Of a stretch of DNA of 49,220 bases, positions 13,101 through 43,361 are shown one piece after another. Positions within the stretch are counted from its first letter, which is position 1; every line of letters begins with the position of its first letter. The notes beneath the pieces were generated by a model that was not told the DNA's origin, did no database searches, and saw nothing but the letters and a program-made list of their open reading frames with translations. This DNA comes from Chromera velia (taxonomy: Eukaryota): assembly GCA_018398765.1 (NCBI GenBank), contig JAHBMJ010000381.1, positions 1-49,220 of the forward strand, written 5' to 3'. A program made the position numbers and the translations under genes.

Positions 13101-15655
13101 TACCGCCTATCCAGAGAGTCCCCAATCGCATCCCCTCTCGGCATCATCTGCTCATGTGCCCAGCCTTTGCAATGGATCCGTGAGAAGAGGGAACGTTTTT
13201 ATTCATTTCCTGCCTGTCGGCCAGCTGGCTGGCTGGCTGGCTAGCTGGATAGCTCAGTGTGTGGACAGATATGCAACAGGAGTATGGGGGGATGTCTATA
13301 ATGACTGCCTGCAGCTACACCCCCGAGAACATGGGAGACGATGCTTGGGACTATGTGGACTTTGAGGAAGAGGGATTTGAGGACCTCGACTTGGAGGTTT
13401 GTTATTTCGTTCGTTTCTCTGTTTGTTTGTTCTTTAAAAAATCTCCTTCCTTTTTGTTTTCTGCCCCTCCTGTTGTTTTTGGTGGTCAGCATGGCGGGTG
13501 ACTTTGAACAAATACAGGGGATGGCAGAGATTTCATAGTCTGAGCTCAAGGGGTCGCACTGGGTGATCGACCTTTGTTGTCCGAGGGTAGACTTTGTTTG
13601 GGTTGTTTCCTTTTCCCTGCTTGCCTCTGTATGGAAGTAAGTAAGGCAAACGACCAGGACAAACTTGTTGGTCTCGTACTTCATTTTGTGATTCTTCCAC
13701 ACTCTGCTGCAGTTTGACGAAATTGCCCTTGAGCAGAGCGCTCTTGGAGATAAGGGGGTCGGGGACCTCACCAAATTCTCCCCCCACACAGACTTTATTG
13801 CAATGACCCCCCAGTCTCTTGACGGAGACCCTGAGGACGTTAGAGAGAAGAGATCGAGGTGGGAAAGGATACATGTATTTGTGTTCCGTAGGTGAGAGTA
13901 AACAAGTTTCATGTGTCTGTATTCGCAAAGCTTGAAGATTGAAAGAACATTAGAGAAAATAGGGAAAGACGGGATGCAAGCGAGGCGAGAGGGGAGGTCT
14001 CAACAAACAAATAAGTATAGACTGAAGGAGGACGAGCTAAAAGTCAGGAATCCCAAATGGGACGTTGATATCGTGCTTTCTACAAAAAATAACATGCAAA
14101 GCATGCGTACCACTACGAAGCTTCTACTGTGGTACAATTCGGGCTGCACCACGGTGTTTAGTACACCGTAGGCTAACAGCATATATTGCATGTGCATTCC
14201 AAAAAACAGTAAGTGTATGCATGAACGCGTATGGGTGATCGGCCTCCCCTCCACCGTGCAGGTTCCTGGAGCGCGCCTATGGAGACTACCTCTTCTCATG
14301 TCCCGCTAGGTCCCTCGCTAGAGGCGCCACTGAGGCAGGAGGCACTGTGTACCTCTACACAATTCCTCAGGGCTTTGACTGGACACGAAACCTCAGACAC
14401 CAGTACTGTCCCACTGAGAACAGATTCGTCGGAAGCAAAAGACCTGTGATGGACGTCGGCTGTGTGACCTATGCAGGAAGGTAAGTTTTGGGGTGGTTTT
14501 TCTTTCAGTGAAACAGCAAGAAATTGATTTGGACTTCCCAGTTCGCCTTTTGGGCAGACCCGAAGGATAAGGACGGAACCAAATGAACTTATGATGATCT
14601 TCATAAGTTTATTTTTTTCCTCTGAATGAACTGCCTGCAGATGTTCCCAGCTGCCCTACGCATGCCATGCCGAGGAGATCACATGGTTCTTCCAATCTGG
14701 AAAGAAATTCATTCAGGACGAAAAGGGGCAACCCTATGAGGGACCGGAGTTCGAGAGGGCTGCTGCAGAGGAACACGCACAGTTCATTGCGAACTTCGCT
14801 CTTACGGGTGGGTCTGTCTGAATGCATCCCATGCCTCTCTTCCGGTTCGTCACTCTCTTTAGCTGCTTGCGCCTGTCTTCTGATGCGCGTTTTTGTCCCT
14901 CTGCGTATGCATTTATCTGTTCTTTTTTCGATTTCTTCATTGCATCCTGTTCCCCTTCACTGCAGGAATCCCGGCAAGTGCCGCAGCGGGCCACTGGCCC
15001 GCCACCACTGGAGCCACCCGCAACATGTTCGGTGTGTGGCAGTTCGGGGGCCGCAACGCCGACGCATTTAAGGTCTTGGGGGTGCCCCAGGGTCCTGTGC
15101 TGTCGGACTATAAGAAGGAGGTATGTGTTCATATGGATGCGTATGGATGTGTGAAGCCTTCTTTTTTCTTCTTTGCCTGCCTCTTTCGTGCTTTCTCGCA
15201 CCGAATCTTGACACAGACAGAAGAGTGTTTTACGGAACGGTGAGTTCTCGTGTGTGCAGGTATGCGACCTCTGGGACGGTCTGTCTCCCTCTTACAGTTG
15301 GAGCTGGATGGACAATTTTTGGGACAGACTTCGGAGAGACGACAGAAAGACGATGAGAAGAATTGCAAGCAAGGTGTTGAGGAAAGTCGCCAACCGGGTG
15401 GCAGAGAAAATGGGCAGCGGGGTGTCTCACAGGTACAACGCCTTGGGTGCAATGAAGATCGACTGTCGGAGGGTGGTGTATGGCAGTGGGGGGGCTGTTG
15501 GGAAGAAGGGATACGTGGAAGTGACCCACGGACACGGGGGAAGGGGGGGAACAGTTGTTGACGAGTGCACAGGGGACAAGCCTTTTGACACAGTGGAGGG
15601 GCACTTTGATGGGAAGCTTCTGTTCAGGGGGAAGCGGAAGGGGGACGAGGACTGA
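10185..15655 (+). CDS. Secreted type-B carboxylesterase/cholinesterase-like alpha/beta hydrolase, ~13 exons, ~894 aa
   Basis: In-phase exons 10185-10641, 11118-11257, 11376-11868, 12040-12100, 12552-12620, 12797-12953, 13083-13179, 13269-13396, 13713-13858, 14262-14480, 14641-14807, 14966-15120, 15260-15655 (middle exons less certain). Signal peptide; motifs [31 protein letters not shown]...GESAG (Ser), GNDGEEG (Glu), [15 protein letters not shown] (His), ANFALTG, CDLWD. Confidence 0.9.
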
Positions 15656-21104: not shown

Positions 21105-21553
21105 CAATCGAAGACAAGGGCGGAGATTTGCGGAGCATACATCGTTGTGCTACGTTGTGCTGCCAGCTCTCCGAGGTTGACTGAATTCCCGGTTGATTGT
21201 TTGAGCTTCAATGCTGAGCAATGAAGCCTGAGAATCAAATGAACTCAAAGAGAACAGCGTGATAAGAATTCGACCGACAAGGAACAATCCTGAGCCAGCA
21301 AGTGCGTGTCAAAGTCAACACAACAGCGAATCTCAGAGATTCAGACTGAGCACCGTACCTTTTCCTTTCTCCGTTGAAACCGTAAGTCTGTCGATTCCCT
21401 TCGGGTTGGCAGACAAGCGCACAGGGACGTCCTGTACAAAGTAAACCTGAATCCCATAGACGAGATCGACGGATCGACGAAGAACCAGTCTGTCCACCCA
21501 ACAAACCAAGCAAAAGAGCAACAGTCGTCAAACGAAAGAAAGAAACCGACCAA

Positions 21554-24550
21554 ATGACACGCTCCGTAGGCTCACCCCCGTCGTTCCGTTTGCTTTTGGT
21601 CAGCTTCTTCATTTTCCACATTGCCATTCAGCTATCCGCTGCCGCTGGAACTCCAAAGAAGGCAAAAGGAGAAGAACCCCAGCAGACGACAACCAACCCA
21701 AAAGGGCTCCTTAGAGGTTCCAAACAACTCCCAAGAGAGATCTACGCAACAACAGAAGCAGCACAAATCGGCACCGACCCATTTGACATTGAAGTAGAGA
21801 GAGCAGACATGGACAAAGGGGCCCATTCCATCAAGATTGGGGGACGTTTGGTGTTCGAAGAAAGAAGCAGAGAGACGAACCGCGAGTTCATCAGACAAGA
21901 AGCGTTGAAGAATTGGAAGTTTTTCGAAGATTTCACCTCCACAGACACAGGTCTCGTGGAAGATTCGGTCGACTTCTCTGACGTCGACCTAAGTTCCATC
22001 AACCCGAATGACCCTGCCTCCAGAACACAAGGGAGACGGGCAGAATACACCAGTCCCACAAACGTAGGCCTGTCCCTCACAGCCGTTGTTTCTGCATTTC
22101 AATTGGGGTTCATTGACAGGGCGGACGCCATTCGTCGCCTGTCTGCAACCCTGAACACTCTGAGTACAATGGACCACTGGAAGGGTTTGACATTCAACTG
22201 GATCACTGTACCAGAGGGGAATTCTCGAAGCAACTGGGTCTCCTCAGTTGACTCAGGCAACCTGATGGCATCCCTGTTGGTTGTCTCCGCAGCCTTTCCA
22301 GACGAGCTCCCCCAAGCTGACATGCTCTACAAACGTGCACAGTCAGCAGAGTCGCTCTGGAATACAGAGAGACAGCAATACAGAATCGGTGCCAATGTTC
22401 TCATTCCCGGCCTAGGCGCCAATCCCCTCCACAAGGACGTCCCTCTGGGAGAAGAGGGCAAGCAGAAGGGGGAAGAAGAGGGCCCACCTGTAGCGGCATC
22501 AGAAGAAGCACAAGAGAAGAAGGAGAAAAGCGAGACGGAGCAGGGAGAACAGGACTTCCCTGCAGTTCCCAGCATCTACCACTATGGTCAGTCTGCTGCC
22601 TGGGAGAGCAGTCTTTCTTTGTGGTTCCATGAGTACTCCAGACATCCCATAAGATTGATCAAGGCTTCTGTTCTCTCCTTATGTCTTCTTTGCTTCTGCT
22701 TCGATGGCTTCATTGATTCCACTAGATAGGGAAAAGGTGTGTTTCTGTGTGTAGGGAGGCAAGAAATCTCTTTGCGTACCTGTCTGCTTTTCTCACTGCC
22801 TTCACTCATCGACGGATTTCCCTCCCACCCCCAGTAGTTCTCATGACTTTCCTTCTTTCCTTTCCCTCTCTCTTGTTTTTGCAGCGGTGTTCAATTCAGA
22901 AGCACGCACCCTCTACTACCTAGCAGCAGCAGAGAGAGCAATCTCGCAGGAACAACTTGTTGAGGTCTGTCGAGAAAGAAAGACAGGGGGAGTTCTCTTG
23001 TGTGTCTGTCTCTGTCTCTTTCCTTCTCCACTGCTGCCTCCTCTTCGTTCCTTCCTTTCCACCAAGTATTTCGCTTTTTCGACCACTCCCGGAAATCTGG
23101 GAAAGGATCGAGGCCAAATTCTGTCTGTCCATATTCTTGTCTCTTGACCCTCTCCTTACGTCTCTCCCTTTTCTTTTCATATTAATATTTTGAAATCATA
23201 TTTGCCGTGCCTCGAGAGGGCTCCGATTGCCTTGTGTCAGTGAGTGACCTTCGCTGAGACGGCACCTCTTCACCGTCTCCCTTTGTCATGCAACATTCCG
23301 AAAGAGCCGCCTCTCCTCCTATTTACTTGTACTTGCGCACAGGGTCCAAACTTCACCCTCCCCGTCCCCGAGCCGGAAGAGTTCGGTTGGGGTCCTGTCG
23401 AGCCTCGGGAGATTTTCTTTGGTGGTCGGCCCGTGAACCTGGGCAGAAGCGGGAAGACTCTGTCGCCTACAGGTGGGTGAAGGGGAGAGGGCTTTTCTCT
23501 TTCCTTCTCGCTCTCGCTTTCTCTGCCTCTCTCTTTCTCTCCCTCTCTCCCTTCATCTCTCTGTGTCTGTATACGTGTGTAAACTCGAGTAAATCACTTT
23601 CTGCCTTTTTGCAGGCGGAGCCTACTATGTGACTGCCCTCGGTGAGCGTGTGCTGGCCTTGCTCCCTTCCTGGGGAGGCAGCGCTTTCGAGACGATGCTT
23701 CCCTCCCTGTTTGTGGACGAGTGGGCACTCTGCAGGTCTGTCTGCATGTCTGTCTGTCTGTTTGTCTGTCTGCCTGTACAGGAGAAGAAGAAACATACAG
23801 TCTGTCTGCATGTTTACGCGGATACTGGTGTACATTGAAATGGAGAGACAGTGAAGGACAGGGTCAAAAAGGGCTTTGCATCTGTTGATTTCCGGGTCTA
23901 AGAGAAGATTGCAAGAGTTTCATCTCTTTTTGTGTCCTTCCAAAAGGAGTCTGCATGGCCCCATCAGGAAGAAAAGAGAGGATCAGTTTGGTTTTTGAGA
24001 ATCTCCTCTGTGGTCTCGATGATTCAATGTGTCTTTCCCCCGTCCTCTCCGAGCGCCTCTGCCTGCCTTCCCTCGACAACAAAATTTTCTCCAGCACGCC
24101 TCACCTCTCTTCTTCTTCTTGTCCCGCCATCTCTACCTTTTCAGACCTTTTTCACTTCTTCTCTTTCACCCCCCTTCCCCTTCTTCTCTCTCTGCCCTTC
24201 CAGAGGCAGAGGGGAGAGCCGAACCCAGGGCCAGGGCCTGGCAGCCAATCAGGTGGCCCAGTACAGTGCTCAGAGACTGCAGGCCATCGAGATCGGGCAC
24301 ACGCTGTGGGGCTACTCGCCTGCGAGACGTCTGGATGGAACCTATGGGGAGATGGGCGTGTCGGTCGCAGGAATCAAAGGGTCCGTCAGTAGAGTAGAGT
24401 AGAGAGACAGAGGGCAGGGAGAAGTGTATGTGCCGCTGGGGACTTTCTGGGAGATTGAGGTGCAAAACTGAAATATGCATACAGAGACGGAGGTAGGAAG
24501 GCAGATAGACAGACAAAAGAGAGAGAGATTGACGCACACACAAACATCAA

Positions 24551-24593
<43 letters not shown>

Positions 24594-24596
24594 CGC

Positions 24597-24631
<35 letters not shown>

Positions 24632-25404
24632 AAGACAGAGAGAGAGAAACACAATGCTTGCTTTTTGATGTGTCCTTTCTTGTTTTGTTTTGTTTTGTTT
24701 TTAGTCCTGCTTCCATTTATTAGAGTCAGAAAAATCCCCGCAAAGGACACTTTCTCCTCTTCGTGAGTGTCGTGAAAGCTGTCTAGCCAATCTGAGATCC
24801 ATGCGGTCTTGTTTGAGCATGTGAATGAGTGTAAGGAGTGCAATCTGTCTGCTTTCACCTTTTCTTCTCTCTCTGTGCATGATGCAGGTACAGACCCACC
24901 GACGTGACCCCCCACGCCTCCATGGTGTTCCTCGAGATCGATCCCGACGCGGTCGTGGCCAACTGGAGGAAGCTGTACGATCCTGAATACGCACAGACAA
25001 CAGGAGCGGTGCACCCGGTGTACGGTCCTTTCGACGCGGTGCCGCCCCAGAGGCACGAGAAGGCGCGGAGGGAGAGGGAGAGACTGGAGTTGGAGAGAGA
25101 CGATGGCAGCGGGTCCGAGAAGCAAGCAGCAGAGCACCCAGGGAGACGGCACCCGGGGGTGGCACTTCCCGTGTTGCTTTCTTTGGATGTAGGTATGCAA
25201 TTTCTTTCGATGAGTAACTACCTGCTTGCTGGGACTGGGAAGAGTCCCAAGGAGCTGTTGATGTCAACAATGGGGGACACCCTCGCCGAGGGGGGTATGA
25301 TGCTTTGGGACAAGGTGATATTCGACCAGGCAGGGGAGGAGGCTCTAGTTGCTGCAGCTCTCGAACTGCAGAGGGTAGATGGGGGGGGTGACGCGGTCTT
25401 TTAG
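21554..25404 (+). CDS. Secreted glycoside hydrolase/transglycosylase resembling the cyclization domain of cyclic beta-1,2-glucan synthase (GH189/DUF3131/'glucoamylase-family'), 6 exons, ~685 aa
   Basis: In-phase exons 21554-22586, 22885-22964, 23343-23472, 23615-23735, 24204-24380, 24888-25404. Signal peptide; ordered motifs NWKFFE, YTSPTNVGL, GLTFNW, VSSVDSGNL, HY...SEAR, SWGGSAFETMLPSLF, LWGYS, YGEMGV, VTPHAS, YGPFDA, LDVGM...NYL. Confidence 0.85.
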
Positions 25405-28592: not shown

Positions 28593-30274
28593 TAGGGATA
28601 TCTATCGTATTGTATCGGTATCGTATCGGAATTTAACGTTCCAAAAAAAGGGGGTATCTTTGATAATTTTGATGCTGAAATAAAATTTTTAGCATACGAG
28701 GTAGTGACTATGTTTGATTTGATTTGATTTGATTTGATTTGATTTAAGTTAGGGCTTAAGCTCAAATCAAATATCCAGTCAGGGAGGACCTAGTGTTTAA
28801 AGACCTATCAAATACGATCAAATATTTGATCAATATGACTTTCAACCTCAAATATGAAGGTCCCGAAAAAACTTTTGTAAGTACCGATCCGTCACGCATG
28901 CTGATTCAAATGAAAAAACCTAAATCTTGATGGTTTGCTCTCAAAAAAAAAAGTTTTGAGCTGCATTGAAATTGATGTTTCACCCCCTTTTACTTCATGC
29001 AGAGGTAAACCGATCAGCTGAACGTTTTCCCGAACAGCTGTGTTGACTTTTCTGGTGCTGGAACATCTTTTACGGCCCTCTTTTTGAGCGTCTGCAAACA
29101 TTTTACACCCCATAAAGACATGTCACACAATCCGACAAGGTCGAACGGGAAGAAGGAGGCATTTGTTTTTAGAGCCGGGTACGCAAAAAAAATATGGTCC
29201 ATGCAAAAGGGGGCAAATGTGATTTAGTGTCAGATGAAAATATAAGGAGCTGAGGGGGAAAGAGAAACTATTTGCGGCTGTGAGTATACAGCAGCGGCAA
29301 CCAGTTCTTTTCAAACCCACCTCATCAATCAGCATGGCTTGACGATCACGTCTGACAAACAAATAGCAAACGTGTGCGCGGTTCTCGTCTTTTTCACCCA
29401 GGAGCACCCACTCCTGGAAAGCCGAAAAGCCAGAGAAAAAGCTCTCAGCAGCTCCCACCACCGATCGATTCGATTCATATTGAAGAAAGTGATCATGAAA
29501 AAGAGGAAAAGGAAGTGCCATAAAGCTGAGTGATTGTCACCTCAATTTTGGTACGTGCTCTAACTTTATCGTATCAACAAAAAGTCATATACAATTTCAA
29601 ATCTATTAATTTTACGTTCTTAATCTCTATTAGTACTAGAGTGAGTCTCAGTGACTAGTGTATATACACTGCCACACAGGCATATTTTTTTTACGGAACT
29701 GATAAGTTATAATTTTATATATATTTTTTTAAATTTTTGAAACACACATCAGAAATGTTCTGATAACTATTGTCATGAGAAAAATGATCAGAGTGACAGT
29801 AAGTCAGTGACTCAGTGAGGAACTCTAAGAGGTTAACCTCAAATCTTACCTCAAATATCAAATATTTGAGGTTGAAGCTCAAATCAAATCAAATCAAATC
29901 AAATCAAATCACATCAAATCAAATATAATCAAATCAAACATGGTCACTAGTACGAGGCTAAAACCTATAGTGCAAACAGTATCATTCGTCAAACTAAAAA
30001 CTTTTTGTAAAAACCTCATGTTTTTAAAGAGTCAACTTTACTTAGAAAATGGGCTTCGAAACGTTTAGAAGGCCAAACTACCCCCCTAACCCCCCCTTTT
30101 AAAAGAGTCAACACATCATCAGATTAGTAGTAGTCCTTCACAAATATTCACATGCAAGCTCTAAGCAGGCCGATACTAACCAATACTCGGCCGCTCGAGA
30201 AAGAACCAATAGTCAATACTTCGATACCGATACCAATATAATACGATACGATATCGATACAATAGCTATCCCTA
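28593..30274. mobile_element. hAT-type MITE 1 (426 bp when empty), interrupted here by a nested element
   Basis: TIR TAGGGATATCTATCGTAT ... ATACAATAGCTATCCCTA; perfect 8-bp TSD GTCTTAAC (28585-28592, 30275-30282); subterminal GATAC-like repeats. Confidence 0.88.
28702..29949 (+). mobile_element. Non-autonomous hAT element 2 (1248 bp) with a decayed BED zinc-finger remnant
   Basis: TIR TAGTGACTATGTTTGATT / AATCAAACATGGTCACTA; subterminal (TTTGA)n/(TCAAA)n arrays; 8-bp TSD ATACGAGG/GTACGAGG; empty site GTACGAGG at 36664-36671 in copy B. 29192-29341 translates IWSMQKGANVI*CQMKI*GAEGERETICGCEYTAAATSSFQTHLINQHGL. Confidence 0.9.
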
Positions 30275-30305
30275 GTCTTAACACTATAGTCTTAATATCT
30301 AGCTC
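30132..30305. repeat. 174-bp direct repeat flanking the LINE (partner 34880-35053; in copy B 36846-37019 and 41589-41757)
   Basis: AGTCCTTCA...ATCTAGCTC is present immediately on both sides of each LINE copy. Confidence 0.9.
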
Positions 30306-33300
30306 AGTTAGTTAGTTAGTTAGTTAGTTAGTTAGAAGATGCCTAACCCCAGTAACTGTTGGAGCGCTAAGCTCCCGGGCGGCATATACATGCATGGTTG
30401 TTGTTTGTTAAGTCGCCGGTGGAGTTGATCAGTTAATCACTTTCTAGAATAGAAAGAGAAGCATCAAAGAGACAGAGCGTAGAAGCGATCGAATGACATT
30501 ACAGATAAAGAGTTCAGATATACTTGCACCGGGGAGTGGACAGTTACAATCATTTAAATTAATGGATTCCAGCTCAGCCAGGCAGTGCAGGAATTCTCTT
30601 TCATCCAGCTACTTGGCACATGAAGAAAGTCTATGCATGAAGTCATCAACATACTGAATACAAGAATCATGTACACAGAGTTTGTGGTCGCTACATTCAA
30701 AAGACAGAGCACTGCTTTCGCCTTGTGGTTTAAATAAGAGCAGACGTAAGAAACCGAACAGAGAGCTGTCGGTTACTATGAGAACAGATCGAGGGAGAGC
30801 AGAAAAGGAGTAGAGACTAGAGGCGGATTTATTGTAAAGAAGAAACATAAACATGCGATGAGAGGAGGGAAAAGCTTGTTGAAGGGGGGTGAGCTTGGCA
30901 AGAGGAGGGAAATGTGAAGAAGCGATATTAGCCCCCGCCCGCCGCGTGCAGACCTCTTCCATAACTGTATGTCTAGCTCTGCCCTTAAAAAAGAGAGAGC
31001 CGGTTCCATGAACTCTCTGTCACTGCTGTCCGCTGGTGCTAGGGTGTTGCAGCACTCCCACCCCTAACGAACAAACAAAATCCAGACCAGCCCAACGAAG
31101 CAGCCACAAGGAGGCTCTCAAAAACTCTGGACAAGTGTTTCTCTTCCAGCTTGGCACGTAGCATTGCAGCGGGAACGGTATGCATGGTTTGTGAGAGCGA
31201 GCACCACCAGTCGGCCACTTTAGAGCAAAGCAGGGCTTTTGCAGGAAGCAGGCCGAAAATACACAGGGAGGGCAAACGAAGACTGCGAGCAGGCAGACGG
31301 CCAGACCAGCGTGCAAAACGGAGCTGCAAAGCATCGATTGCAAGAAGATCGGCATCACAAAGAGGGAAGGATTCGAGGCAGTACAGTATAACAGAGGACC
31401 AACATGCTTTAAAAATAGTCATTTACGTATCTACACTGAGGGAATCTATGCTGGCAATCAGACCAAACACAGCCCCCAGCGTGCAGGAGGCCGAAGCAAT
31501 ACGCAATTCAACTGTCTCACTGAGGCTTCCCCCCTCAAAGAACAGGCACCCCAGGTACTTGTATTCCGTTGCCTATTCAACCTCTTTCCCTTCATATTGT
31601 AACACCACCACACTGGAGCTTTTCCCAAATGCAGAGGCAGACAGGCGAAGAATCTTTGTCTTTTTCAGATTAACTGTAAGTCTCCATTCTTTGCAATACT
31701 TCTCGAGAGCAGAGAATTTCTTTTGAAGGTCTGAGACGGAATGGCCAAGAAAGCAGAGATCGTCAGCATAACTCAAACTGTCCAGGATACAATCATCTAG
31801 CAAAACTCGCTCCGGCTCACTTTCTGGCTCCTCTCCACTGCCCGTTTCCATTTCAGAATCTAATATGTCTGCCCGCTCTCGCTCTACTGCCTCGCTGGTA
31901 TGCCTTGCCTCGCTCTTCTAGCTCGCTCTTGCTTGCAGAACACACACGGGGGAGATCATTTATGTACAAAAGAAAAAGAATAGGCGAGAGGGCATCCCCT
32001 TGCTTCACTCCAGTGCCCTCCCAAAAATGTAGAGAGTCCCCGTCAACCTTGCCCCATACCTCTCTGTACATTTCACAGATCATGCAGATGTCTGCCTCAC
32101 TCACACCTTCATTTCTCAGTTTCTGAATTAACTTTGCTCTCGGCACAGTGTCAAACGCCTTTGAAAAGTCAACAAAACCTGCTAACAGAGCCTTTCTTTT
32201 CTTTTTACATGAAGAAACAACAGAGACAAGAGCACCGACCCCCTCTCTGAGGCTCGTTCCCACCCCTTCACGGAACCCTAGCTGTTTGAAGTTAAGACAG
32301 ACCTGGGAATGCATACGGCAGTCCATCAGGAGGCCGAAAAGTTTTGCAAAAGGGTTTACAACATGGATTGGTCTCCATTCGTTAGGAGAGGGGGAAGCAG
32401 CCTGAGGGCCTTTCAGAACTAGGCAAATGTGCAAAACGTTCCATGAAGGAGGCCAGCAAGCATGAATATGCATCAGGGCTAGGCATCAAATTAAATAAAA
32501 CAAAAAGTAAAAAGCGGGAGAGAGCAGATTTGGCAAAGCAGAGATCTAGCTGTGCAAAAGAGATGCCTTCAAGGCCAGTAGCTTTCTTCTTGTTCATTTT
32601 CTTCAGGTGGGAAGAGATCTGGTGAAAAGAGAAGGGCAGAGCAGAGGGGTGGAAGGGAGGAGAGGCAGGGGGATGGACCAAAGGGAGAGGCTCCTTGTTC
32701 AGATCTTCAAAAACACCCGCCCAATAGTTCAAAAATATGCGGGAGGACGGGCATGATACACCACCAGCCGACGAGGCGGCTTTCTTCTTCCTTTTCCAAA
32801 GGGAGAGAGGATCCTTGAGGAATTCTTCTTGAACCCTCTGTGCTTCTTTCTTCTTCTAAGCAGCCTGTTTGCGTTTAAAGAGGCTACGGCGGACCCGGAG
32901 TAGTCTCTGAAGGCGATCGAATTCCAATCCTCTCCCACCCATATCTCTCACCAACTTCCAAACGCGGTCCGCCTCTCTTACTTCCTTTTGTATGGACTTA
33001 CATTCTTCATCAAACCAAGCCTCTTTCATTCTACGCTTAACCCCCAACCCAAACCTTGCTCCGTTCTTTTTCAGTTTCACAGGCCCAACGAGCAGTCGAG
33101 ACCACTCCTGGACAAATCTGAGGAGGCAAGCATGACTGTCCTTGGCCCCCCCTTGCGGAGAAAAGAGGGGATCAGGCGAGTCAGGGGGGCAGAAGAGAAA
33201 GGGCGGGAGGATTCGGGAGGGGGAGGAGGGACAGGCGGCTCTACAAAAGGCTCAATCTAGTTGTGATATTCCCATAGACCCAGCCAGCGCTATTCTACGA

Positions 33301-34879
33301 ATCTTTTGACTGCAGCTGCCAACAGTGCAAGCTCTTCATCTGATATGGGGGTGGAGCGGTTAGAACAGAAGAGCAAAGGGCATTCAGAGAGGTTCTGGTG
33401 GGGCAGAAGGGCGTCTTCTTGCTCTGGTTTGATTGAAGGGGGGCAGAGGGAAAAAGAGACAGATGCGTGGTCAAGGGAGGCAATACCATCAAATTTAACC
33501 TTCTAATCAGCGATCTTCTTAACAACAGAGGGGTCAGTTAACATATAATCTATGACGGAGGTGGGCTTTGACATCTGCGACTGTCTGGAGTAATGCGTAC
33601 AGAGACCAGGGAAGTCAAACTCTTTTCCACCCACTTTTTCTTTCAATCCGTTCAGGGGGACAAGGTTCGAATCGCTGCAGAGCTGAATAAAATTCTTTCC
33701 GCAGGGCTTGACTTCTTGTATACATTCAGAGGACCGTTTGAACAACGGTGTGTCTGCTTCAGTTTTGGGCCCCTCCCCTACAATACTACCATCTCCATTG
33801 CCTCCCCCCTCAAAAGGCTCCTCACTGCTACCAGACTCATTGGGCAGAAGAAGGAGATCTGTACAGGACCAGAGAAGATTCTCGGGTAAAAGGGAGCCTA
33901 TATGTGTGTTGCAGTCCCCAACCACAACTCTATCGACATCCAGAGGGACCCCTCCAAAAAGGTTACTCAAATGGCCAGAGACCTTGTTGTCTCTGTGATC
34001 TAACCAGGAGCCAAGCAGGTAGACGCCAAAGATGTGAACCCTTCTAGAACCCCCTAACAGAACTTTTGTTTCCATTATACTGGGGCCGACCAACAAGATT
34101 TCAGGTTTCAATTCGCTCCATCTTTCTTCTTAAACTAACATACAAACTCCCCTAGTTTTCAATTCCCTGTCATGTGCTGCCCTACGCGTGCCCAACTGCC
34201 GCCGGTACCATTCTCTGTAACAGTCACTGAAATTCTTTCCCTTCCACCCCTTACACAAAACGTCCCTCATAACCTCTGACATATCTGTCAAGATTACAAT
34301 ATTGCAATCAATCTCATTTAGCCAACAAGCGAGGGAACCGTCCTCTTCCCTGGCCTTCAGGCCGGCAACATTTAGGGTAACAATCTTTACTCTCCCATCC
34401 CGGGCCCTAATTGCAGCTAAAACCTTCCTTTCTACCATCTTCCTTCTCTCTCTCCAAAAAGCTCTTCTCAATTCTTCCGAATGCTTCAAATTATCTGCTG
34501 ACTCCCACAAATACGAAAAAGCAGGGCCCCAATTTTAATCCATATAATACTCCCTCTACTCCCCTTCATTGATGTGAGTGTCTAACACCTACACCACCTC
34601 CCACTCCGTCTCCAAAGCAACCAAGCCCCCTGCTTCCCCCGGCTGATCTAGCTGAGACTCTCGGGACGCGACGCCTGCCCTCTTGCTTTCTCTTCTTTTC
34701 TTCCCCCTTCCTTTTCTACGATTCTTCCTCTCTGCCCCACATAAAAGAGACGGATCCAAATAAAAAGACTCTAGAGAGGCTTAGCTGCAGGGGGGGGAAG
34801 AAGACAAAAAGTCAGGTACGATATCAGAGGCAAGAGGGGAGAGAGTCGAGTCGGAAAGAGAGGAGAGGGACTTACCTGC
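30306..34879 (-). mobile_element. Non-LTR retrotransposon (LINE), chromodomain-APE-RT, inactivated, copy A
   Basis: APE motifs KIVTLNVAGL, IFGVYL, VVVGDCNTHIG, IDYML, SLDH. RT motifs WRPIHVVN, QLGFR, FVDFSKAFDTV, GVKQGDALSPILF, YADD. 3' tail (CTAA)n at 30306-30335. In-frame stops and frameshifts. Confidence 0.95.
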
Positions 34880-36562
34880 AGTCCTTCATAAATATTCATA
34901 TGCAAGCTCTAAGCAGGCCGATACTAACCGATACTTGGCCGTTTGAGAAAGAACCGATAGTCGATACTTCAATACCGATACCGATACGATACGATACAAT
35001 ATCAATACGATAGCTATCCCTAGTCTTAATACTATAGTCTTAATATCTAGCTCTCTCTCTCTATATATATATATAATATATATACATATAGTATTAATTT
35101 ATATTGATTTTTTCTTTATTTGGTCTAGTAGTATTCAGTATATGACTCGAAAAAACCTGGTATTAGGCTGGTAATAAACTGTATAAGGTAGTGACCATAA
35201 TATATAACCGAGCAGGCCGGCCAACTTGAAGGACGTCTGATGTGCTAGCTGATGCTTCTTTTTAAGTTTAGAAGCTGGACCTAGAGCTGGATATCGGATA
35301 TTCGCTAGGATATTCCAATCATATTCGGCAGTGAATTGACACTAAACTCGGCATTAGGGCCAGGGCTAGCCTAAGGGCCAATCCTCTGGACATCGTACAT
35401 AACTTCTTATCGGAGGCCTAGTCGGAGGCTCATCTTATTAATAATATTAAGTATAAATCCTATATTTATTATGCTAAAATAATTTTTGTGAATCACATTG
35501 CTAGTTACATTGATAATTATAATATCTCAGCCAAGCTAATTATCATGGTGCGTCGTCTTGAGGTGCCTCGTGGTGACTCAAACATGTGGTAGATGCTCTG
35601 CAGGCGCAGGCATTTCTGGGCAGTTTGTGACAACAGGCAGATTGATGCAAAAGAGGAGAGGAGCAAACAGAAACAAGTGAAGGGGGGCAAAGAAGTCACC
35701 CCGAGCGGGAGAGACACAACGGAAAGAAGAGAGGGAGGGAATATGTTGGTATAGATTATGACTGCACAGATGTTGTGTGGCTGGCTGGCTATCGAATTCA
35801 CGAAAGAAGGAAAAAGAGGGTGGCAGAGAGAGAGAGTTCCGTGACGCTTCCGGTCCCTCTGTCTGCCCATCTCTTTTCTTCTCTTCCTTCTTTCAAGTTA
35901 CCTGTGAAGTTGTCCTGCCTGCATGCAAGCACAATTTGATCCACATACATCCAAGCTGAGCAAGACTCGGACAAGTTCCCGGTCTACGAGTTGTCCAAAT
36001 GTTTGCTTTTTCTAACTTAAAGTCATTCTTTCTCAGACTGCCTGTACTTCGATTAACGCATTTGTTGATCGCTTTCTCTCTGAGTTGCCGGGCGATGAGA
36101 AGAGAAAGCAAAGAAAGCAATGTTGATGCAAGTGCTTCCTTTTTTCATCATCTGTGCAAGTGTGGTGGTTAGCTGCTGATGCTTCAAAGAGAAAGACCTG
36201 TTGACGCTACACGTACAGTGTCTTAAAAAAAAAGAGTGAACATTGAAAAACCACTCACTTGGACTAGGACTTGGCTAGGGACTTGGATAGACTTGGAATG
36301 CCAAGTGGCTGAAAGACGCGCTACAAGCGGGCTTTATACGCACTGGTGTGCAAATAACTATATAAAATATGAGAACTTCCATTCAAAATGGATCTGTTCA
36401 TACCTATAGGCTATAGCTAAGATCGAAAAGGGCATTTGAAGGTGGTATCACAGTGCTTACAACATTAAATTCTACATCAAATTGTCATCAATTAAGGTGT
36501 TTACTTATGATATAATTATACTGCTAGTACCCATATAAAAAAATGCTGAAATTGGTCTTAAC

Positions 36563-36988
36563 TAGGGATAGCTATCGTATTGTATCGGTATCGTATCGGA
36601 ATTTAACGTTCTAAACAAAGGGGGTATCTTCGATAATTTTGATACTGACATAAAATTTTTAGCGTACGAGGCTAAAACCTATAGTGCAAACAGTATCATT
36701 CGTCAAACTAAAAACTTTTTGTAAAAACCTCATGTTTTTAAAGAGTCAACTTTACTTAGAAAATGGGCTTCGAAACGTTTAGAAGGCTAAACTACCCCCC
36801 TAACCCCCCCTTTTAAAAGAGTCAACACATCATCAGATTAGTAGTAGTCCTTCACAAATATTCACATGCAAGCTCTAAGCAGGCCGATACTAACCGATAC
36901 TCGGCCGCTCGAGAAAGAACCGATAGTCAATACTTTGATACCGATACCAATATAATACGATACGATATCGATACAATAGCTATCCCTA
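36563..36988. mobile_element. hAT-type MITE 1, uninterrupted copy (426 bp)
   Basis: TIR TAGGGATAGCTATCGTAT / ATACAATAGCTATCCCTA; TSD GTCTTAAC at 36555-36562 and 36989-36996. Confidence 0.9.
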
Positions 36989-37019
36989 GTCTTAACACTA
37001 TAGTCTTAATATCTAGCTC

Positions 37020-40000
37020 AGTTAGTTAGTTAGTTAGTTAGTTAGTTAATTAGTTAGAAGATGCCTAACCCCAGTAACTGTTGGAGTGCTAAGCTCCCGG
37101 GCGGCACATATATGCATGGTTGTTGTTTGTTAAGTTGCCGGTGGAGTTGATCAGTTAATCACTTTCTAGAATAGAAAGAGAGGCATCAAAGAGACAGAGC
37201 GTAGAAGCGATCGAATGACATTACAGATAAAGAGTTCAGATGTACTTGTACCGGGGAGTGGATAGTTACAATCATTTAAATTAATGGATTCCAGCTTAGC
37301 CAAGCAGTGCAGGAATTCTCTTTCATCCAGCTACTTGGCATATGAAGAAAGTCTATGCATGAAGTCATTAACATACCGAATACAAGAATCATGTACACAG
37401 AGTTTGTGGTCGTTACATTCAAAAGACAGAGCACTGCTTTCGCCTTGTGGGTTAAATGAGAGCAGACGTAAGAAACCGAACAGAGAGCTGTCGGTTACTA
37501 TGAGAGCAGATCGAGGGAGAGCAGAAAAAGAGTAAAGACCAAAGGTAGATTTATTGCAAAGAAGAAACACAAACATGCGATGAGAGGAGGGAAAAGCTTG
37601 TTGAAGGGGGGTGAGCTTGGCAAGAGGAGGGAAATGTGAAGAAGCGATATTAGCCCCCGCCCGCCGCGTGCAGACCTCTTCCACAACTGTATGTCTAGCT
37701 CTACCCTTAAAGAAGAGAAAGCCAGTTCCATGAACTCTCTGTCACTGCTGTCCGCTGGTGCTAGGGTGTTGCAGCACTCCCACCCCTAATGAACAAACAA
37801 AATCCAGACCAGTCCAACGAAGCAGCTGCAAGGAGGCTCTCGAAAACTCTGGACAAGTGTTTCCCTTCCAGCCTGGTACGCAGCATTGCAACAGGAACGG
37901 TATGCATGGTTTGCGAGAGCGAGCACCACCAACCGGCCACTCTAGAGCAAAGCAGGGCTTTTACAGTAAGCAGGCCGAAAATACACAGGGAGGGCAAACG
38001 AAGACTGCGAGCAGACAGACGGCCAGACCAGCGTGCAAAACGGAGCTGCAAAGCATCGATTGCAAGAAGATCAGCATCATAAAGAGGGAAGGATTCGAGG
38101 CAGTATAGTGTGACAGGGGACCAACACGCTTTAAAAATAATCATCTGCGTATCTACACTGAGGAGATCTATGCTGGCAATCAGACCAAACACAGCCCCCA
38201 AGGCGCAGGAGGCCAAAGCAATATGCAATTCAACTATCTCACTAAGGCTTCCCCCCTCAAAGAACAGGCACCCCAGGTACTTGTATTCCGTTGCCTATTC
38301 AACCTCTTTCCCTTCATATTGTAATACTACCACACTGGAGCTTTTCCCAAATGCAGAGGCAGACAGGCAAAGAATCTTTGTCTTTTTCAGATTAACTGTA
38401 AGTTTCCATTCTTTGCAATACTTCTCGAGAGCAGAGAATTTCTTTTGAAGGTCTGAGACGGAATGGCCAAGAAAGCAGAGATCGTCAGCATAACCCAAAC
38501 TGTCCAGGATACAATCATCTAGCAAAACTCGCTCCGGCTCGCTTTCTGGCTCCTCTCCACTGCCCGTTTCTATTTCAGAATCTAATATGTCTGCCCGCTC
38601 TCGCTCTACTGCCTTGCTGGTATGCCTTGCCTCGCTCTTCTAGCTCGCTCTTGCTTGTAGAACACACACGGGGGAGATTATTTATGTACAGAAGAAAAAG
38701 AATAGGCAAGAGGGCATCCCTTTGCTTCACTCCAGTGCCCTCTCGAAAATGTAGAGAGTCCCCGTCAACCTTGCCCCATACCTCTCTGTACATTTCACAG
38801 ATCATGCAGATGTCTGCCTCACTCACACCCTCATTTCTCAGTTTCTGAATTAACTTTGCTCTCGGCACAGTATCAAATGCCTTTGAAAAGTCAACAAAAC
38901 CTGCCAACAGAGCCTTTCTTTTCTTTTTGTACGAAGAAACAACAGAGGCAAGAGCACCAACCCCCTCTCTGAGGCTCGTTCCCACCCCTTTACGGAACCC
39001 TAGCTGTTTGAAGTTAAGACGGACCTGGGAACGCACACGGCAGTCCATCAGGAGGCCAAAAAGTTTTGCAAAAGGGTTTACAACATGGATTGGTCTCCAT
39101 TCATTAGGAGAGGGGGAAGCAGCCTGAGGGCCTTTCAGAACTAGGCAAATGCGCAAAACGTTTCATGAAGGAGGCCAGCAAGCATGAATATGCATCAGGC
39201 TAGGCATCAGGTTAAATAAAACAAAAAGTAAAAAGCGGGAGAGGGCAGATTCGGCAAAGCAGAGATCTAGTTGTGCAAAAGAGATGCCTTCAAGGCTAGC
39301 AGCTTTCTTCTTGTTCATTTTCTTCAGGTAGGAAGAGATATAGTAAAAAGAGAAGGGCAGAGCAGAGGAGTGGAAGGGAGGAGAGGCAGGGAGATGGACC
39401 AAAGGGAGAGGCTCCTTGTTTGGATCTTCAAAAACACCCGCCCAATAGTTCGAAAATGCGCGGAAGGACGGGCATGATACACCACCAGCCGATGAGGCGG
39501 CTTTCTTCTTCCTTTTCCAAAGGGAGAGAGGATCTTTGAGGAATTCTTCTTGAACCCTCTGTGCTTTTTTCTTCTTCTAAGCAGCCTGTTTGCGTTTAAA
39601 AAGGCTACGGCGGACCCGGAGTGGCGATCGAATTCCAATCCTCTCCCACCTACATCTGTCACCAACTTCCAAACGCGGTCTGCCTCTCTCACTTCCTTTT
39701 GCATGGACTTGCATTCTTCATTAAACCAAGCCTCTTTCATTCTACGCTTAACCCCCGACCCAAACCCTGCTCCGTTCTTTTTCAGTTTCACAGGCCCAAC
39801 GAGCAGTCAAAACCACTCCTGGATAAATCTGAGGAGGCAAGCGTGACTGTCCTTGGCCCCCCCTTGCGGGGAAAAGAGGGGATCAGGCGAGTCAGAGGGG
39901 TCAGAAGAGAAAGGGCGGGAGGATTTGGGAGGAGGAGGAGGGACAGGCGGCTCTACAAAAGGCTTAATCTAGTTGTGATATTCCCATAGACCCGGCCAGC

Positions 40001-41588
40001 GTTGTTCTGTGAAACTTTTGACTGCAGCTGCCAATGGTGCAAGCTCTTCATCTGATATGAGGGTGGAGCGGTTAGAACAGAAGAGCAAAGGGCATTCAGA
40101 GATGTTCTGGTGGGGCGGAAGGGCGTCTTCTTGCTCTGGTTTGATTGGAGGGGGGCAAAGGGAAAAAGAGACAGATGCGTGGTCGAGGGAGGCAATGCCA
40201 TCAAATTTAACCTTCTAATCAGCGATCTTCTTAACAACAAAGGGGTCAGTCAACATATAATCTATGACGGAGGTGGGCTTTGACATCCGCGACTGTCTGG
40301 AGTAATGCGTACAGAGACCAGGGAAGTCAAACTCTTTTCCACCCACTTTTTCTTTCAATCCGTTCAGGGGGACAAGGTTCGAATCGCTGCAGAGCTGAAT
40401 AAAATTCTTTCCGCAGGGCTTGACTTCTTGTATACATTCAGAAGACCGTTTGAACAACGGTATGTCTGCTTCAGTTTCGGGCCCCTCCCCCATAATACCA
40501 CCATCTCCATTGCCTCCCCCCTCAAAAAGCTCCTCACTGCTACCAGACTTATTGGGCAGAAGGAGGAGATCTGTATGGGACTAGAGAAGATTCTCAGATA
40601 AAAGGGAGCCTGTATGCGTGTTGCAGTCCCCAACCACAACTCTATCGACATCCAGAGGGACCCCTCCAAAAAGGTCACTCAAATGGTCAGAGACCTTGCT
40701 GTCTCTATAATCTAACCAGGAGCCAAGCAGGTAGACGCCAAAGATGTGAACCTTTCTAGAACCCCCCAACAAAACTTTTGTTTCCACTATACTGGGGCCG
40801 ACCAACAAAATTTCAGGTTTCAATTCGCTCCATCTTTCTTCTTAAACTAACACACAAACTCCCCCAGTTTTCAATTCCCTGTCATGTGCTGCCCTACGCG
40901 TGCCCAACTGCCGCCGGTACCATTCTCTGTAACAGTCACTGAAATTCTTTCCCTTCCACCCCTTGCACGAAACGTCCCTCATAACCTCTGACATATCTGT
41001 TAAGATTACAATATTGCAATCAATCTCATTTAGCCAACGAGCGAGGGAACCGTCCTCTTCCCTGGCCTTCAGGCCGGCGACATTTAGGGTAACAATCTTT
41101 ACTCTCCCATCCCGGGCCCTAATTACGGCTAAAACCTTCCTTTCTACCATCTTCCTTCTCTCTCTCCAAAAAGCTCTTCTCAACTCTTCCGAATGCTTCA
41201 AATTATCTGCTGACTCCCACAAATGCGAAAAAGCAGGGCCCCAATTTTAATCCATATACTACTCCCTCTGCCCCCCTTCATTAATGCGAGTGTCTAACAC
41301 CTGCACCACCTCCCACTCCGTCTCCAAAGCAACCGAGCCCCCTGCTTCTCCCGGCTGATCTGGCTGAGACTCTCGGGACGCGATGCCTGCCCTCTTGCTT
41401 TCTCTTCTTTTCTTCCCCCTTCCTTTTCTACGATTCCTCTCTGCCCCACATAAAAGAGACGCATCCAAACAAAAAGACTCTGGAGAGGCTTGGCTGCAGG
41501 GGGGGGGAGAAGACAAAAAGTCAGATACGATATCAGAGGCAGGAGGGGAGAGAGTCGAGTCGGAAAGAGAGGAGAGGGACTTACCTGC
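37020..41588 (-). mobile_element. Non-LTR retrotransposon (LINE), chromodomain-APE-RT, inactivated, copy B
   Basis: Same APE and RT motifs as copy A (ORFs 40842-41222, 40581-40823, 38575-39156, 38295-38525); (CTAA)n tail at 37020-37056. Confidence 0.95.
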
Positions 41589-43361
41589 AGTCTTTCATAA
41601 ATATTCATATGCAAGCTCTAAGCAGGCCGATACTAACCAATACTTGGCCGTTCGAGAAAGAACCGATAGTCGATACTTCGATACCGATACCGATACGATA
41701 CGATATCAATACGATAGCTATCCCTAGTCTTAATACTATAGTCTTAATATCTAGCTCTCTCTCTCTCTCTATATATATAATATATATACATATAGTATTA
41801 ATTTATATTGATTTTTTCTTTATTTGGTCTAGTAGTATTCAGTATATGACTCGAAAAAACCTGGTATTAGGCTGGTAATAAACTGTATAAGGTAGTGACC
41901 ATAATATATAACCGAGCAGGCCGGCCAACTTGAAGGACGTCTGATATGCTAGCTGATGCTTCTTTTTAAGTTTAGAAGCTGGACCTAGAGCTGGACATCG
42001 GATATTTGCTAGGATATTCCAATCATATTCGGCAGTGAATTGGCACTAAACTCAGCATTAGGACCAGGGCTAGCCTAAGGGCCAATCCTCCGGACATTGT
42101 ACATATCTTTTTATCGGAGGCCTAGTCGGAGGCTCATCTTATTAATAATATTAAATATAAATCCTATATTTATTATGCTAAAATAATTTTTGTGAATCAC
42201 ATTGCTAGTTACATTGATAATTATAATACTTCAGCCAGGCTAATTATCATAGACTTAAGCAGTTACCACTGTTTAGTTGTATCTGGAGACTTCCTCGTCT
42301 CCGAGGAAGGAGTATATTGCTAACCTAGGCTAATAGCCTAGGCATAATAATTCTCGGGCACTGCTAGTCGTCTATCCTTACCTAGTTTGTGAGAAGGAGG
42401 TAAAGAGAGAAGAAAGGACCATAGAAAAGATGTTAGTCTGCTATACAGAGGCACCCTGCGTATAGAAGACTGGGCACGCGAGCCGCTGAAACAGTTATGA
42501 GTAGCCCAGAGCGACTCGACCCTGTTTCCCCCCAAGGCTCTGTTGCTGTATAGCAATCTCTAATATCTCTATCCTATTGGTGGTCCCTAGGCGACTGTTA
42601 CCCCCTACCTCATGTAAGCTTGGTGTAAAGGAGGAATAGAGTTGGGATACTACTAGTATAGGTTTAATATATTTTAGTTGTATGGTTATCACCAGAGCCT
42701 TATTAGTGGAAGTACTGTGGAACTACCAATAAACAAGACCTTTGGTATATATGTCTGCAACAATTGTCGAAACATATAGGGTGGAGAGGGAGGGTAAAAG
42801 GAAATACCTATGGACCGCGAAGCCAGACGAAGAGGGCCCAAGTTCGTATGGCTCGAAAAACATTCGAATGAGTAGGCCGCCTAGTGAAAACAAACCCCAC
42901 GAAGTCTCTCCTCGACTTGAACTAATTTGCCTTTCTTGAAACCTTGGAGCGACTCTATTTTTTGGAGACTGCCAATTTTATTGTTTTACTCGCATATGTA
43001 TGCTTTGCGGGGCCATTAACGTAGCGACGTGCCCCGGCCTTACGGTGCTGCGCGCGGTGGGCTCCGCCACCCACTATCTTATGCGAAACGCGCTGTGTCT
43101 TAAGAGATAAAGGGTTCTAGCTCGCCCTGCCCGACTCACGCTAGGACTCACGCCTCCCCAGACCCTAACTAAAGATAGTGGATTGCTCCCGTCTGTGCCC
43201 TACGCTATATAAAGGAGAGCCCTCGGCTGCGCTTCACAGATGAATCTGCTAGTGGATTGAATTATAAAAAATTCTAGAAAAATATAACTTATAGTTTGAT
43301 CTAGTAGTTTGATCAGCGTTGTAAAGCATTGATTATAGTATAATTCAATCTAGAACTCAAT

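What the first reader, a model, noticed from the sequence alone, without database searches (positions are those of the whole stretch)
34785..34875. Canonical 91-nt spliceosomal intron in sense orientation at the LINE 5' end
Seen on the minus strand in both copies (B: 41584-41494): CAG|GTAAGT donor, CTGAC branch-like site, long pyrimidine tract, TGCAG acceptor. In copy B the frame from the acceptor to the chromodomain is open and has no ATG. Only about 4 nt of upstream exon remain before the TSD. Established: retrotransposed copies normally lose sense introns. Inference: ORF2 is expressed by splicing to an upstream exon or ORF1 while unspliced RNA is the transposition template; truncated copies would also act as exon traps.
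Basis: partly seen in the sequence, partly recalled or inferred. Interest (0 to 1): 0.7.

Follow-up and report, generated by a model that had tools for sequence, protein, structure and literature searches.

The report
LINE with intron-like, read-through 5' segment
A dead, 5'-truncated jumping gene (LINE), likely from the alga Chromera velia, keeps a 91-base stretch with strong intron signals, but its protein frame runs straight through the stretch, so it likely needs no splicing; no RNA evidence was found either way.

Summary
The 91 nt are there (A 34875-34785, B 41584-41494, minus strand). They hold the best donor of 251 GT sites and the best acceptor of 345 AG sites in the LINE. Shuffles that keep local composition reach that score about 1% of the time. 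(1) A and B are one tandem duplication, not two insertions. (2) The '4-nt exon' is a 5' truncation: 5 contigs in each of two DNA runs continue upstream. (3) The chromodomain-endonuclease frame is also open through the 91 nt in A, B and Chromera gene model Cvel_19213, with an in-frame ATG upstream, so splicing is not needed to make ORF2. At least 3 other copies keep the stretch at full length; no intron-less copy was listed. No RNA contig covered it. Verdict: most likely a Ser/Pro-coding linker read unspliced, with unused or minor splice sites (0.45). A dual-use alternative intron (0.3) or an obligate intron (0.15) remain open. The element itself is unusual: a chromodomain-like unit before the endonuclease and a 174-nt target duplication.

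The parts
34785..34875 (-). 91-nt intron-like segment, copy A; open in the chromodomain frame (Ser/Pro-rich peptide)
41494..41584 (-). same segment, copy B
34876..34882 (-). 7 nt of element left before the donor; 5' truncation point, 3 nt shared with the target duplication
   Evidence: loose ends behind 34882 in 5 contigs of X1 and 5 of X2; Cvel_19213 match starts at 34882
30306..34882 (-). 5'-truncated, inactivated LINE copy A (stops and frameshifts)
37020..41591 (-). LINE copy B, part of the same tandem duplication
34451..34603 (-). chromodomain-like unit (copy A, 3 stops)
   Evidence: Pfam Chromo E 1e-4, 22.5 bits, below the 25.1 cutoff, in relative Cvel_19213; PDB chromodomain 2rsn E 0.0045; no Pfam Chromo hit on A or B themselves
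33450..34390 (-). AP-type endonuclease region (approximate limits)
   Evidence: relatives named endonuclease/exonuclease/phosphatase by UniRef; motifs read by eye; no Pfam hit on A or B
31540..32290 (-). reverse transcriptase, in two frames (approximate limits)
   Evidence: Pfam RVT_1 E 7.5e-13 and 1.3e-7; R2 and LINE-1 RT structures best hits
30306..30335 (-). (TAAC)n 3' tail
34880..35053 (.). 174-nt target site duplication, 5' side of A
   Evidence: 90.8% to 30132-30305; holds about 31 nt of low-depth flank plus the end of a high-copy repeat
30132..30305 (.). 174-nt target site duplication, 3' side of A
41589..41757 (.). target site duplication, 5' side of B
36846..37019 (.). target site duplication, 3' side of B

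Best explanation
The 91 nt are a fixed part of a multicopy LINE family, are kept in every genomic copy seen to cover them, and are likely translated unspliced as a Ser/Pro-rich linker at the front of the chromodomain-endonuclease-reverse transcriptase protein, with splice signals that would be unused or minor. Shown: the retention, the open frame, the 5' truncation at 34882, and the duplication that made copies A and B. Inferred: the unspliced RNA makes the RT protein from an upstream in-frame start and is copied back in cis, which explains why the stretch is never lost. Also inferred: the pyrimidine run comes from this element's habit of coding Pro/Ser linkers with pyrimidine-ending codons.
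For: The frame is open through the 91 nt in A and B and in gene model Cvel_19213, 209 of 254 residues identical. It stays open for 10 more codons with an ATG in both loose-end strings (read by hand). At least 3 distinct other contigs span both junctions with 0 gaps (records 7/14, 8/15, 16), depth does not drop over the stretch, and no joint is listed. Third-position pyrimidine bias in Pro/Ser/Leu codons is 17 of 18 here, against 13 of 14 and 14 of 16 in two coding linkers further down the element. Sister family Cvel_17861 (42% identity over the endonuclease region) has a Ser/Pro linker and basic patch before its chromo-like unit, colinear with the read-through peptide (shuffle p 0.03-0.09). 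Splicing cryptic sites out of human L1 gives spliced integrated copies (PMC5860796, listing and abstract start seen); none were listed here.
Against: The donor (11.5 bits) equals the best, and the acceptor (14.3) beats 11, of 14 host introns scored leave-one-out. The pair scores 25.8 against 15.6 for the rest of the element and 18.8 for its antisense strand. An open 30-codon frame is common inside host introns (287 of 723), and a second frame is also stop-free here. The codon score of the read-through frame (0.3 bits) lies at the 5th percentile of LINE coding and between the 75th and 95th percentile of host introns, so it does not discriminate. For the 91-nt peptide alone the sister-family match is not significant (p 0.05-0.21). 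Cvel_19213 is a prediction, and its N-terminal 76 residues look like a multi-exon mosaic. Only 17 of 79 loose-end rows were shown, so a rare intron-less copy is not excluded.
Confidence: 0.45

Rival explanations
1. Dual-use alternative intron. The unspliced RNA is the transposition template: its upstream frame (possibly ORF1) ends at the TAA inside the donor, and ORF2 starts at an overlapping ATG and reads through. A spliced fraction fuses the upstream frame to chromodomain-EN-RT and tunes the protein ratio, as splicing does for copia gag.
For: Host-grade splice signals at about the 1% level, at the front of the ORF where such a switch would sit. The phase-2 frame is open for 11 codons with an ATG in X2's loose end, and TAA lies in that frame within the donor (read by hand; one search shows the stop). 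All retention data fit as well.
Against: No junction contig or read. X1's loose-end consensus has a stop in the phase-2 frame (agreement 0.8, so unreliable). No protein among those found is in the spliced form: 2 hits, 10, 1. No ORF1 was seen.
Confidence: 0.3
2. Obligate intron: ORF2 is made only from spliced RNA and mobilises unspliced RNA in trans; the open read-through frame is chance.
For: Strong signals. Open frames occur in 40% of host-intron windows. The phase-2 frame is open in X2.
Against: The read-through frame is open with its own ATG. LINE proteins prefer the RNA that made them (recalled), which predicts intron-less copies, and none was listed. At 91 nt it is shorter than all 14 host introns sampled (118-562 nt).
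Confidence: 0.15
3. Host pre-mRNA captured at the 5' junction of this one insertion by template switching.
For: The stretch lies at the very 5' junction and looks like a host intron.
Against: Other copies carry the same 91 nt, and 5 contigs per run share the same upstream continuation, as does Cvel_19213. It is family sequence, not a one-off capture. An old capture in the family's ancestor is not excluded.
Confidence: 0.05

Closest known systems
AP-endonuclease/RT non-LTR retrotransposons (LINEs; best structural hits R2 and LINE-1 RT)
   Same: Endonuclease then RT, 3' short-repeat tail, 5' truncation with microhomology, flanking target duplication.
   Different: A chromodomain-like unit precedes the endonuclease; the duplication is 174 nt; clade not determined (no LINE reference set available).
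Human L1 splice sites and SpIREs (PMC5860796; listing and start of abstract seen)
   Same: Sense-strand splice signals near the 5' end of a LINE that relies on full-length RNA.
   Different: There, spliced RNAs integrate as intron-less copies; none was listed here, and splicing is unshown.
Ty1/copia EVD gag splicing (PMC5580714; abstract and outline seen)
   Same: Analogy for the dual-use rival: unspliced RNA is the genome and the spliced RNA changes protein output.
   Different: LTR element with splicing shown by RNA; here a LINE with no RNA evidence, and splicing would fuse frames rather than shorten gag.
Penelope-like elements that retain introns (PMC3846280; 12 passages seen)
   Same: Retroelement copies that keep a sense-strand spliceosomal intron.
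   Different: Penelope elements have a GIY-YIG endonuclease and terminal repeats; the paper calls intron retention their peculiarity among retrotransposons. This element has an AP-type endonuclease and a LINE RT.
Long target duplications of Dualen-4b_cRei and R9 (PMC9977147; 8 passages seen)
   Same: Target duplications far above the usual 5-20 nt (126 nt for R9; Dualen duplications over 50 nt had a median of 900 nt).
   Different: No second (restriction-like) endonuclease was identified here; not rDNA-targeted.

Membership tests
Spliceosomal (U2-type) intron | GT donor, branch motif, pyrimidine tract, YAG acceptor at host strength | tested here: met
   matrix from 14 host introns, the first 6 frame-checked, the 7th gave 2 stops, the rest picked by eye
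Spliceosomal (U2-type) intron | Removed from RNA (junction reads) | tested here: inconclusive
   1 putative RNA run laid of 5 listed; its 2 contigs lie at 33939-34267 and do not reach the site
Spliceosomal (U2-type) intron | Removal needed to restore the ORF | tested here: not met
   frame open through the stretch in A, B and Cvel_19213
Spliceosomal (U2-type) intron | Splice sites conserved while the inside drifts or takes indels | tested here: inconclusive
   91 nt, no gaps, in A, B and 3 other contigs, but copies differ mostly by transitions after insertion; no DNA of the diverged sister family reached
LINE (APE-type non-LTR retrotransposon) | Non-LTR-type reverse transcriptase | tested here: met
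LINE (APE-type non-LTR retrotransposon) | AP-type endonuclease before the RT | tested here: met
   through relatives' UniRef names and motifs by eye; direct Pfam scan of A and B negative
LINE (APE-type non-LTR retrotransposon) | 3' repeat tail, target duplication, 5' truncation, many dispersed copies | tested here: met
LINE (APE-type non-LTR retrotransposon) | Separate ORF1 upstream | not testable with these tools
   only 30 nt upstream of the truncation visible; no genome held
Penelope-like element | GIY-YIG endonuclease and pseudo-LTRs | tested here: not met
   endonuclease is AP-type; the direct repeats lie outside the tail and include host flank
Chromodomain (PF00385) | Profile match above the curated cutoff; chromo fold | tested here: inconclusive
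   22.5 bits against cutoff 25.1; 4 of 5 PDB hits are chromodomains, best E 0.0045; predicted model unusable, pLDDT 43

The most novel reading that the evidence does not exclude
An AP-endonuclease LINE with an N-terminal chromodomain uses its own dual-coding spliceosomal intron as a switch. Unspliced RNA is the genome and stops the upstream frame at the donor's TAA, while splicing fuses that frame to chromodomain-EN-RT: a copia-like splicing strategy in a non-LTR element that is kept through retrotransposition.
Probability: 0.3. Interest if true: 0.75.

Novelty: new variant of a known kind. Interest (0 to 1): 0.42.

Why it matters
LINEs are expected to lose sense introns at each round of copying, and among retrotransposons intron retention is described as a Penelope peculiarity (PMC3846280). 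A LINE that keeps and uses its own intron would show a new way to set the ratio of its proteins and would test how strict cis preference is. If the stretch is only a coding linker, the lesson is that Ser/Pro linkers in this family mimic host introns. What remains is a chromodomain-fronted LINE family with a 174-nt target duplication, which I did not find described in paper searches. I recall chromodomain-bearing fungal LINEs, but no call confirms that.

Tried and rejected
No genome is held for the window, so full-length copies could not be read. No RNA holder was listed for the stretch; this is no evidence on expression. Protein search for relatives of 997-2845 aa: 0 of 7982 candidates. Relatives under 192 aa: 1 of 587, sharing only residues 46-77 of Cvel_19213; this made me drop the claim that 100 upstream codons are contiguous and open. 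DNA of relatives: metagenomes gave 1 locus from 592 stretches, an unrelated chromodomain-bearing Ty3/gypsy pol read by eye; viral contigs 0 of 199 and prokaryote genomes 0 of 600. ESM Atlas hits were all under 0.8. The AlphaFold model had pLDDT 43, so no fold search was run. The codon-usage test did not discriminate. Four look-ups of earlier findings were empty. Rejected: the two copies as independent evidence; the 174-nt repeats as LTRs (they include low-depth flank and follow the tail); a one-off host capture. My first host-gene frame check used a start one base off; it was corrected.

Full report
Observation. The minus strand holds a 91-nt stretch from a CAG|GTAAGT donor to a CTGCAG acceptor, with CTGAC and a pyrimidine run, at 34875-34785 and 41584-41494. 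A matrix from 14 host introns in this window ranks the donor first of 251 GT sites and the acceptor first of 345 AG sites on the LINE's sense strand. The pair scores 25.8 bits, against 15.6 for the element without its first 120 nt and 18.8 for the antisense strand. The first 6 training introns were frame-checked, the 7th gave 2 stops, and the rest were picked by eye. Block shuffles that keep local composition reached the score in 0, 4, 1 and 3 of 300 trials, and a Markov-1 null in 0.1% of 2000. The signal is real at about the 1% level within the element; a scan of many windows will still meet such cases by chance.

Context. The stretch opens a 4.6-kb dead LINE: a chromodomain-like unit, an AP-type endonuclease, an RT (Pfam RVT_1 E 7.5e-13; R2 and L1 RT structures) and a (TAAC)n tail. 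A 174-nt direct repeat flanks it. Copies A and B lie in one tandem duplication with their flanks (29950-35546 and 36664-42250, 95.3%), so they are one insertion. The closest proteins are Chromera velia gene models named by UniRef and EukProt. That the window comes from this alga or a near relative is my inference. The genome paper lists about 5.2 Mb of LINE in Chromera (PMC4501334; passages and 2 supplement hits seen; 4 of 16 supplementary files were not searched and may bear on this).

Other copies. Contigs of two DNA runs pile up on the stretch to summed depths of 243-349 (X1) and 77-131 (X2), with single contigs at about 14-40; the family is multicopy, though the tool warns that depth is no copy number. 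Five contigs in each run leave the window at 34882 and share one upstream continuation (median 53 and 76 nt). So A and B are 5'-truncated there, with 3 nt of microhomology to the target duplication, and the '4-nt exon' says nothing about the full element. Three distinct contigs span both junctions without gaps (records 7/14, 8/15, 16), depth does not dip, and no joint is listed. An intron-less copy would show as a loose end near 34790; none is among the 17 of 79 rows shown, which does not exclude one. The one putative RNA run laid does not reach the site.

Frames. The frame of the chromodomain and endonuclease is open across the 91 nt in both copies and gives a Ser/Pro-rich peptide. Gene model Cvel_19213 reads through it (209 of 254 identical). 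Reading the 30-nt loose ends by hand, this frame stays open for 10 more codons in both runs, has an ATG 22 nt before the donor, and matches residues 91-100 of Cvel_19213 up to single transitions. The phase-2 frame that splicing would join is open with its own ATG in X2's string, but has a stop in X1's; unspliced, it ends at the TAA inside the donor. Both architectures are therefore possible on 30 nt of evidence, but splicing is not required. Against over-reading the open frame: 287 of 723 thirty-codon frames inside host introns are stop-free, the codon score is uninformative, and the first 76 residues of Cvel_19213 look stitched from other exons. For the coding reading: two undoubted coding linkers further down have the same pyrimidine-ending codon bias (13 of 14 and 14 of 16, against 17 of 18). 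A sister family at 42% identity also has a colinear Ser/Pro linker and basic patch before its chromo-like unit, although the match is marginal (p 0.03-0.09 with the post-acceptor part, 0.05-0.21 for the 91-nt peptide alone).

Mechanism. I commit to read-through (0.45): unspliced RNA encodes the RT protein and is copied in cis, so the stretch persists, and the splice sites are unused or minor. Retention, truncation and the open frame are shown; translation and lack of splicing are inferred. A dual-use alternative intron (0.3) fits all the same data plus the strength of the signals, and differs only in predicting junction reads. An obligate intron (0.15) predicts intron-less copies through cis preference (recalled principle), which were not listed. 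A one-off capture is contradicted (0.05).

Comparison. It works like a LINE and passes the tested LINE features; the clade is untested. It is not a Penelope element, the group known for keeping introns (PMC3846280, passages). Human L1 has splice sites that yield spliced insertions (PMC5860796, listing). Plant copia elements use splicing to set gag output (PMC5580714, abstract). Long target duplications are known from Dualen and R9 (PMC9977147, passages). Searches listed no LINE with a native functional intron, and searches 31 and 60 none with an N-terminal chromodomain; the passages read added none. The library lacks most subscription papers and Repbase, so this is weak evidence of novelty.

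Verdict. Observation partly confirmed, interpretation partly supported and unproven. Interest 0.42; new variant of a known kind; novel case 0.3 probable, 0.75 if true.

Noticed in passing
window 29950-35546 vs 36664-42250: 225 of 237 differences between the duplicated segments are transitions (C context: CA 88, CG 62, CT 46, CC 29), and other family copies show the same bias. This suggests repeat-directed C-to-T hypermutation or heavy methylation in all contexts; the RNA-run contigs carry the less mutated letters.
   Followed up: partly
window 28593-30278 and 36563-36992: The LINE sits in a short element with TAGGGATA inverted ends and an 8-nt flanking direct repeat, hAT-like by recalled features; its end is very high copy (summed depth 9000-12600 in X1).
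   Followed up: partly
window 28702-29949: A 1.25-kb insert with (ATTTG)n subterminal inverted arrays is nested in the hAT-like element in copy A's unit only.
   Followed up: no
window 34451-34603 and proteins P0003, P0004, P0010: Chromodomain-like unit directly before the endonuclease, also in a sister family at about 40% identity; a third family at 59% (P0005, P0015) shows several related LINE lineages.
   Followed up: partly
window 1-545/1068-1612 and 25615-25906/25907-26198: Near-identical local duplications (98% and 99%); real tandem copies or assembly artefacts.
   Followed up: no
window 10185-15655 (+) and 21509-25404 (+): Two intron-rich host genes: one carboxylesterase-like by recalled motifs (not scanned), one with a DUF3131 hit in its first exon (E 1.3e-6). 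Host donors include GTCAG, GTGGG and GTATG.
   Followed up: partly
L001 3-2696: Unrelated Ty3/gypsy pol with a C-terminal chromodomain, pulled in only by the chromodomain (read by eye).
   Followed up: no
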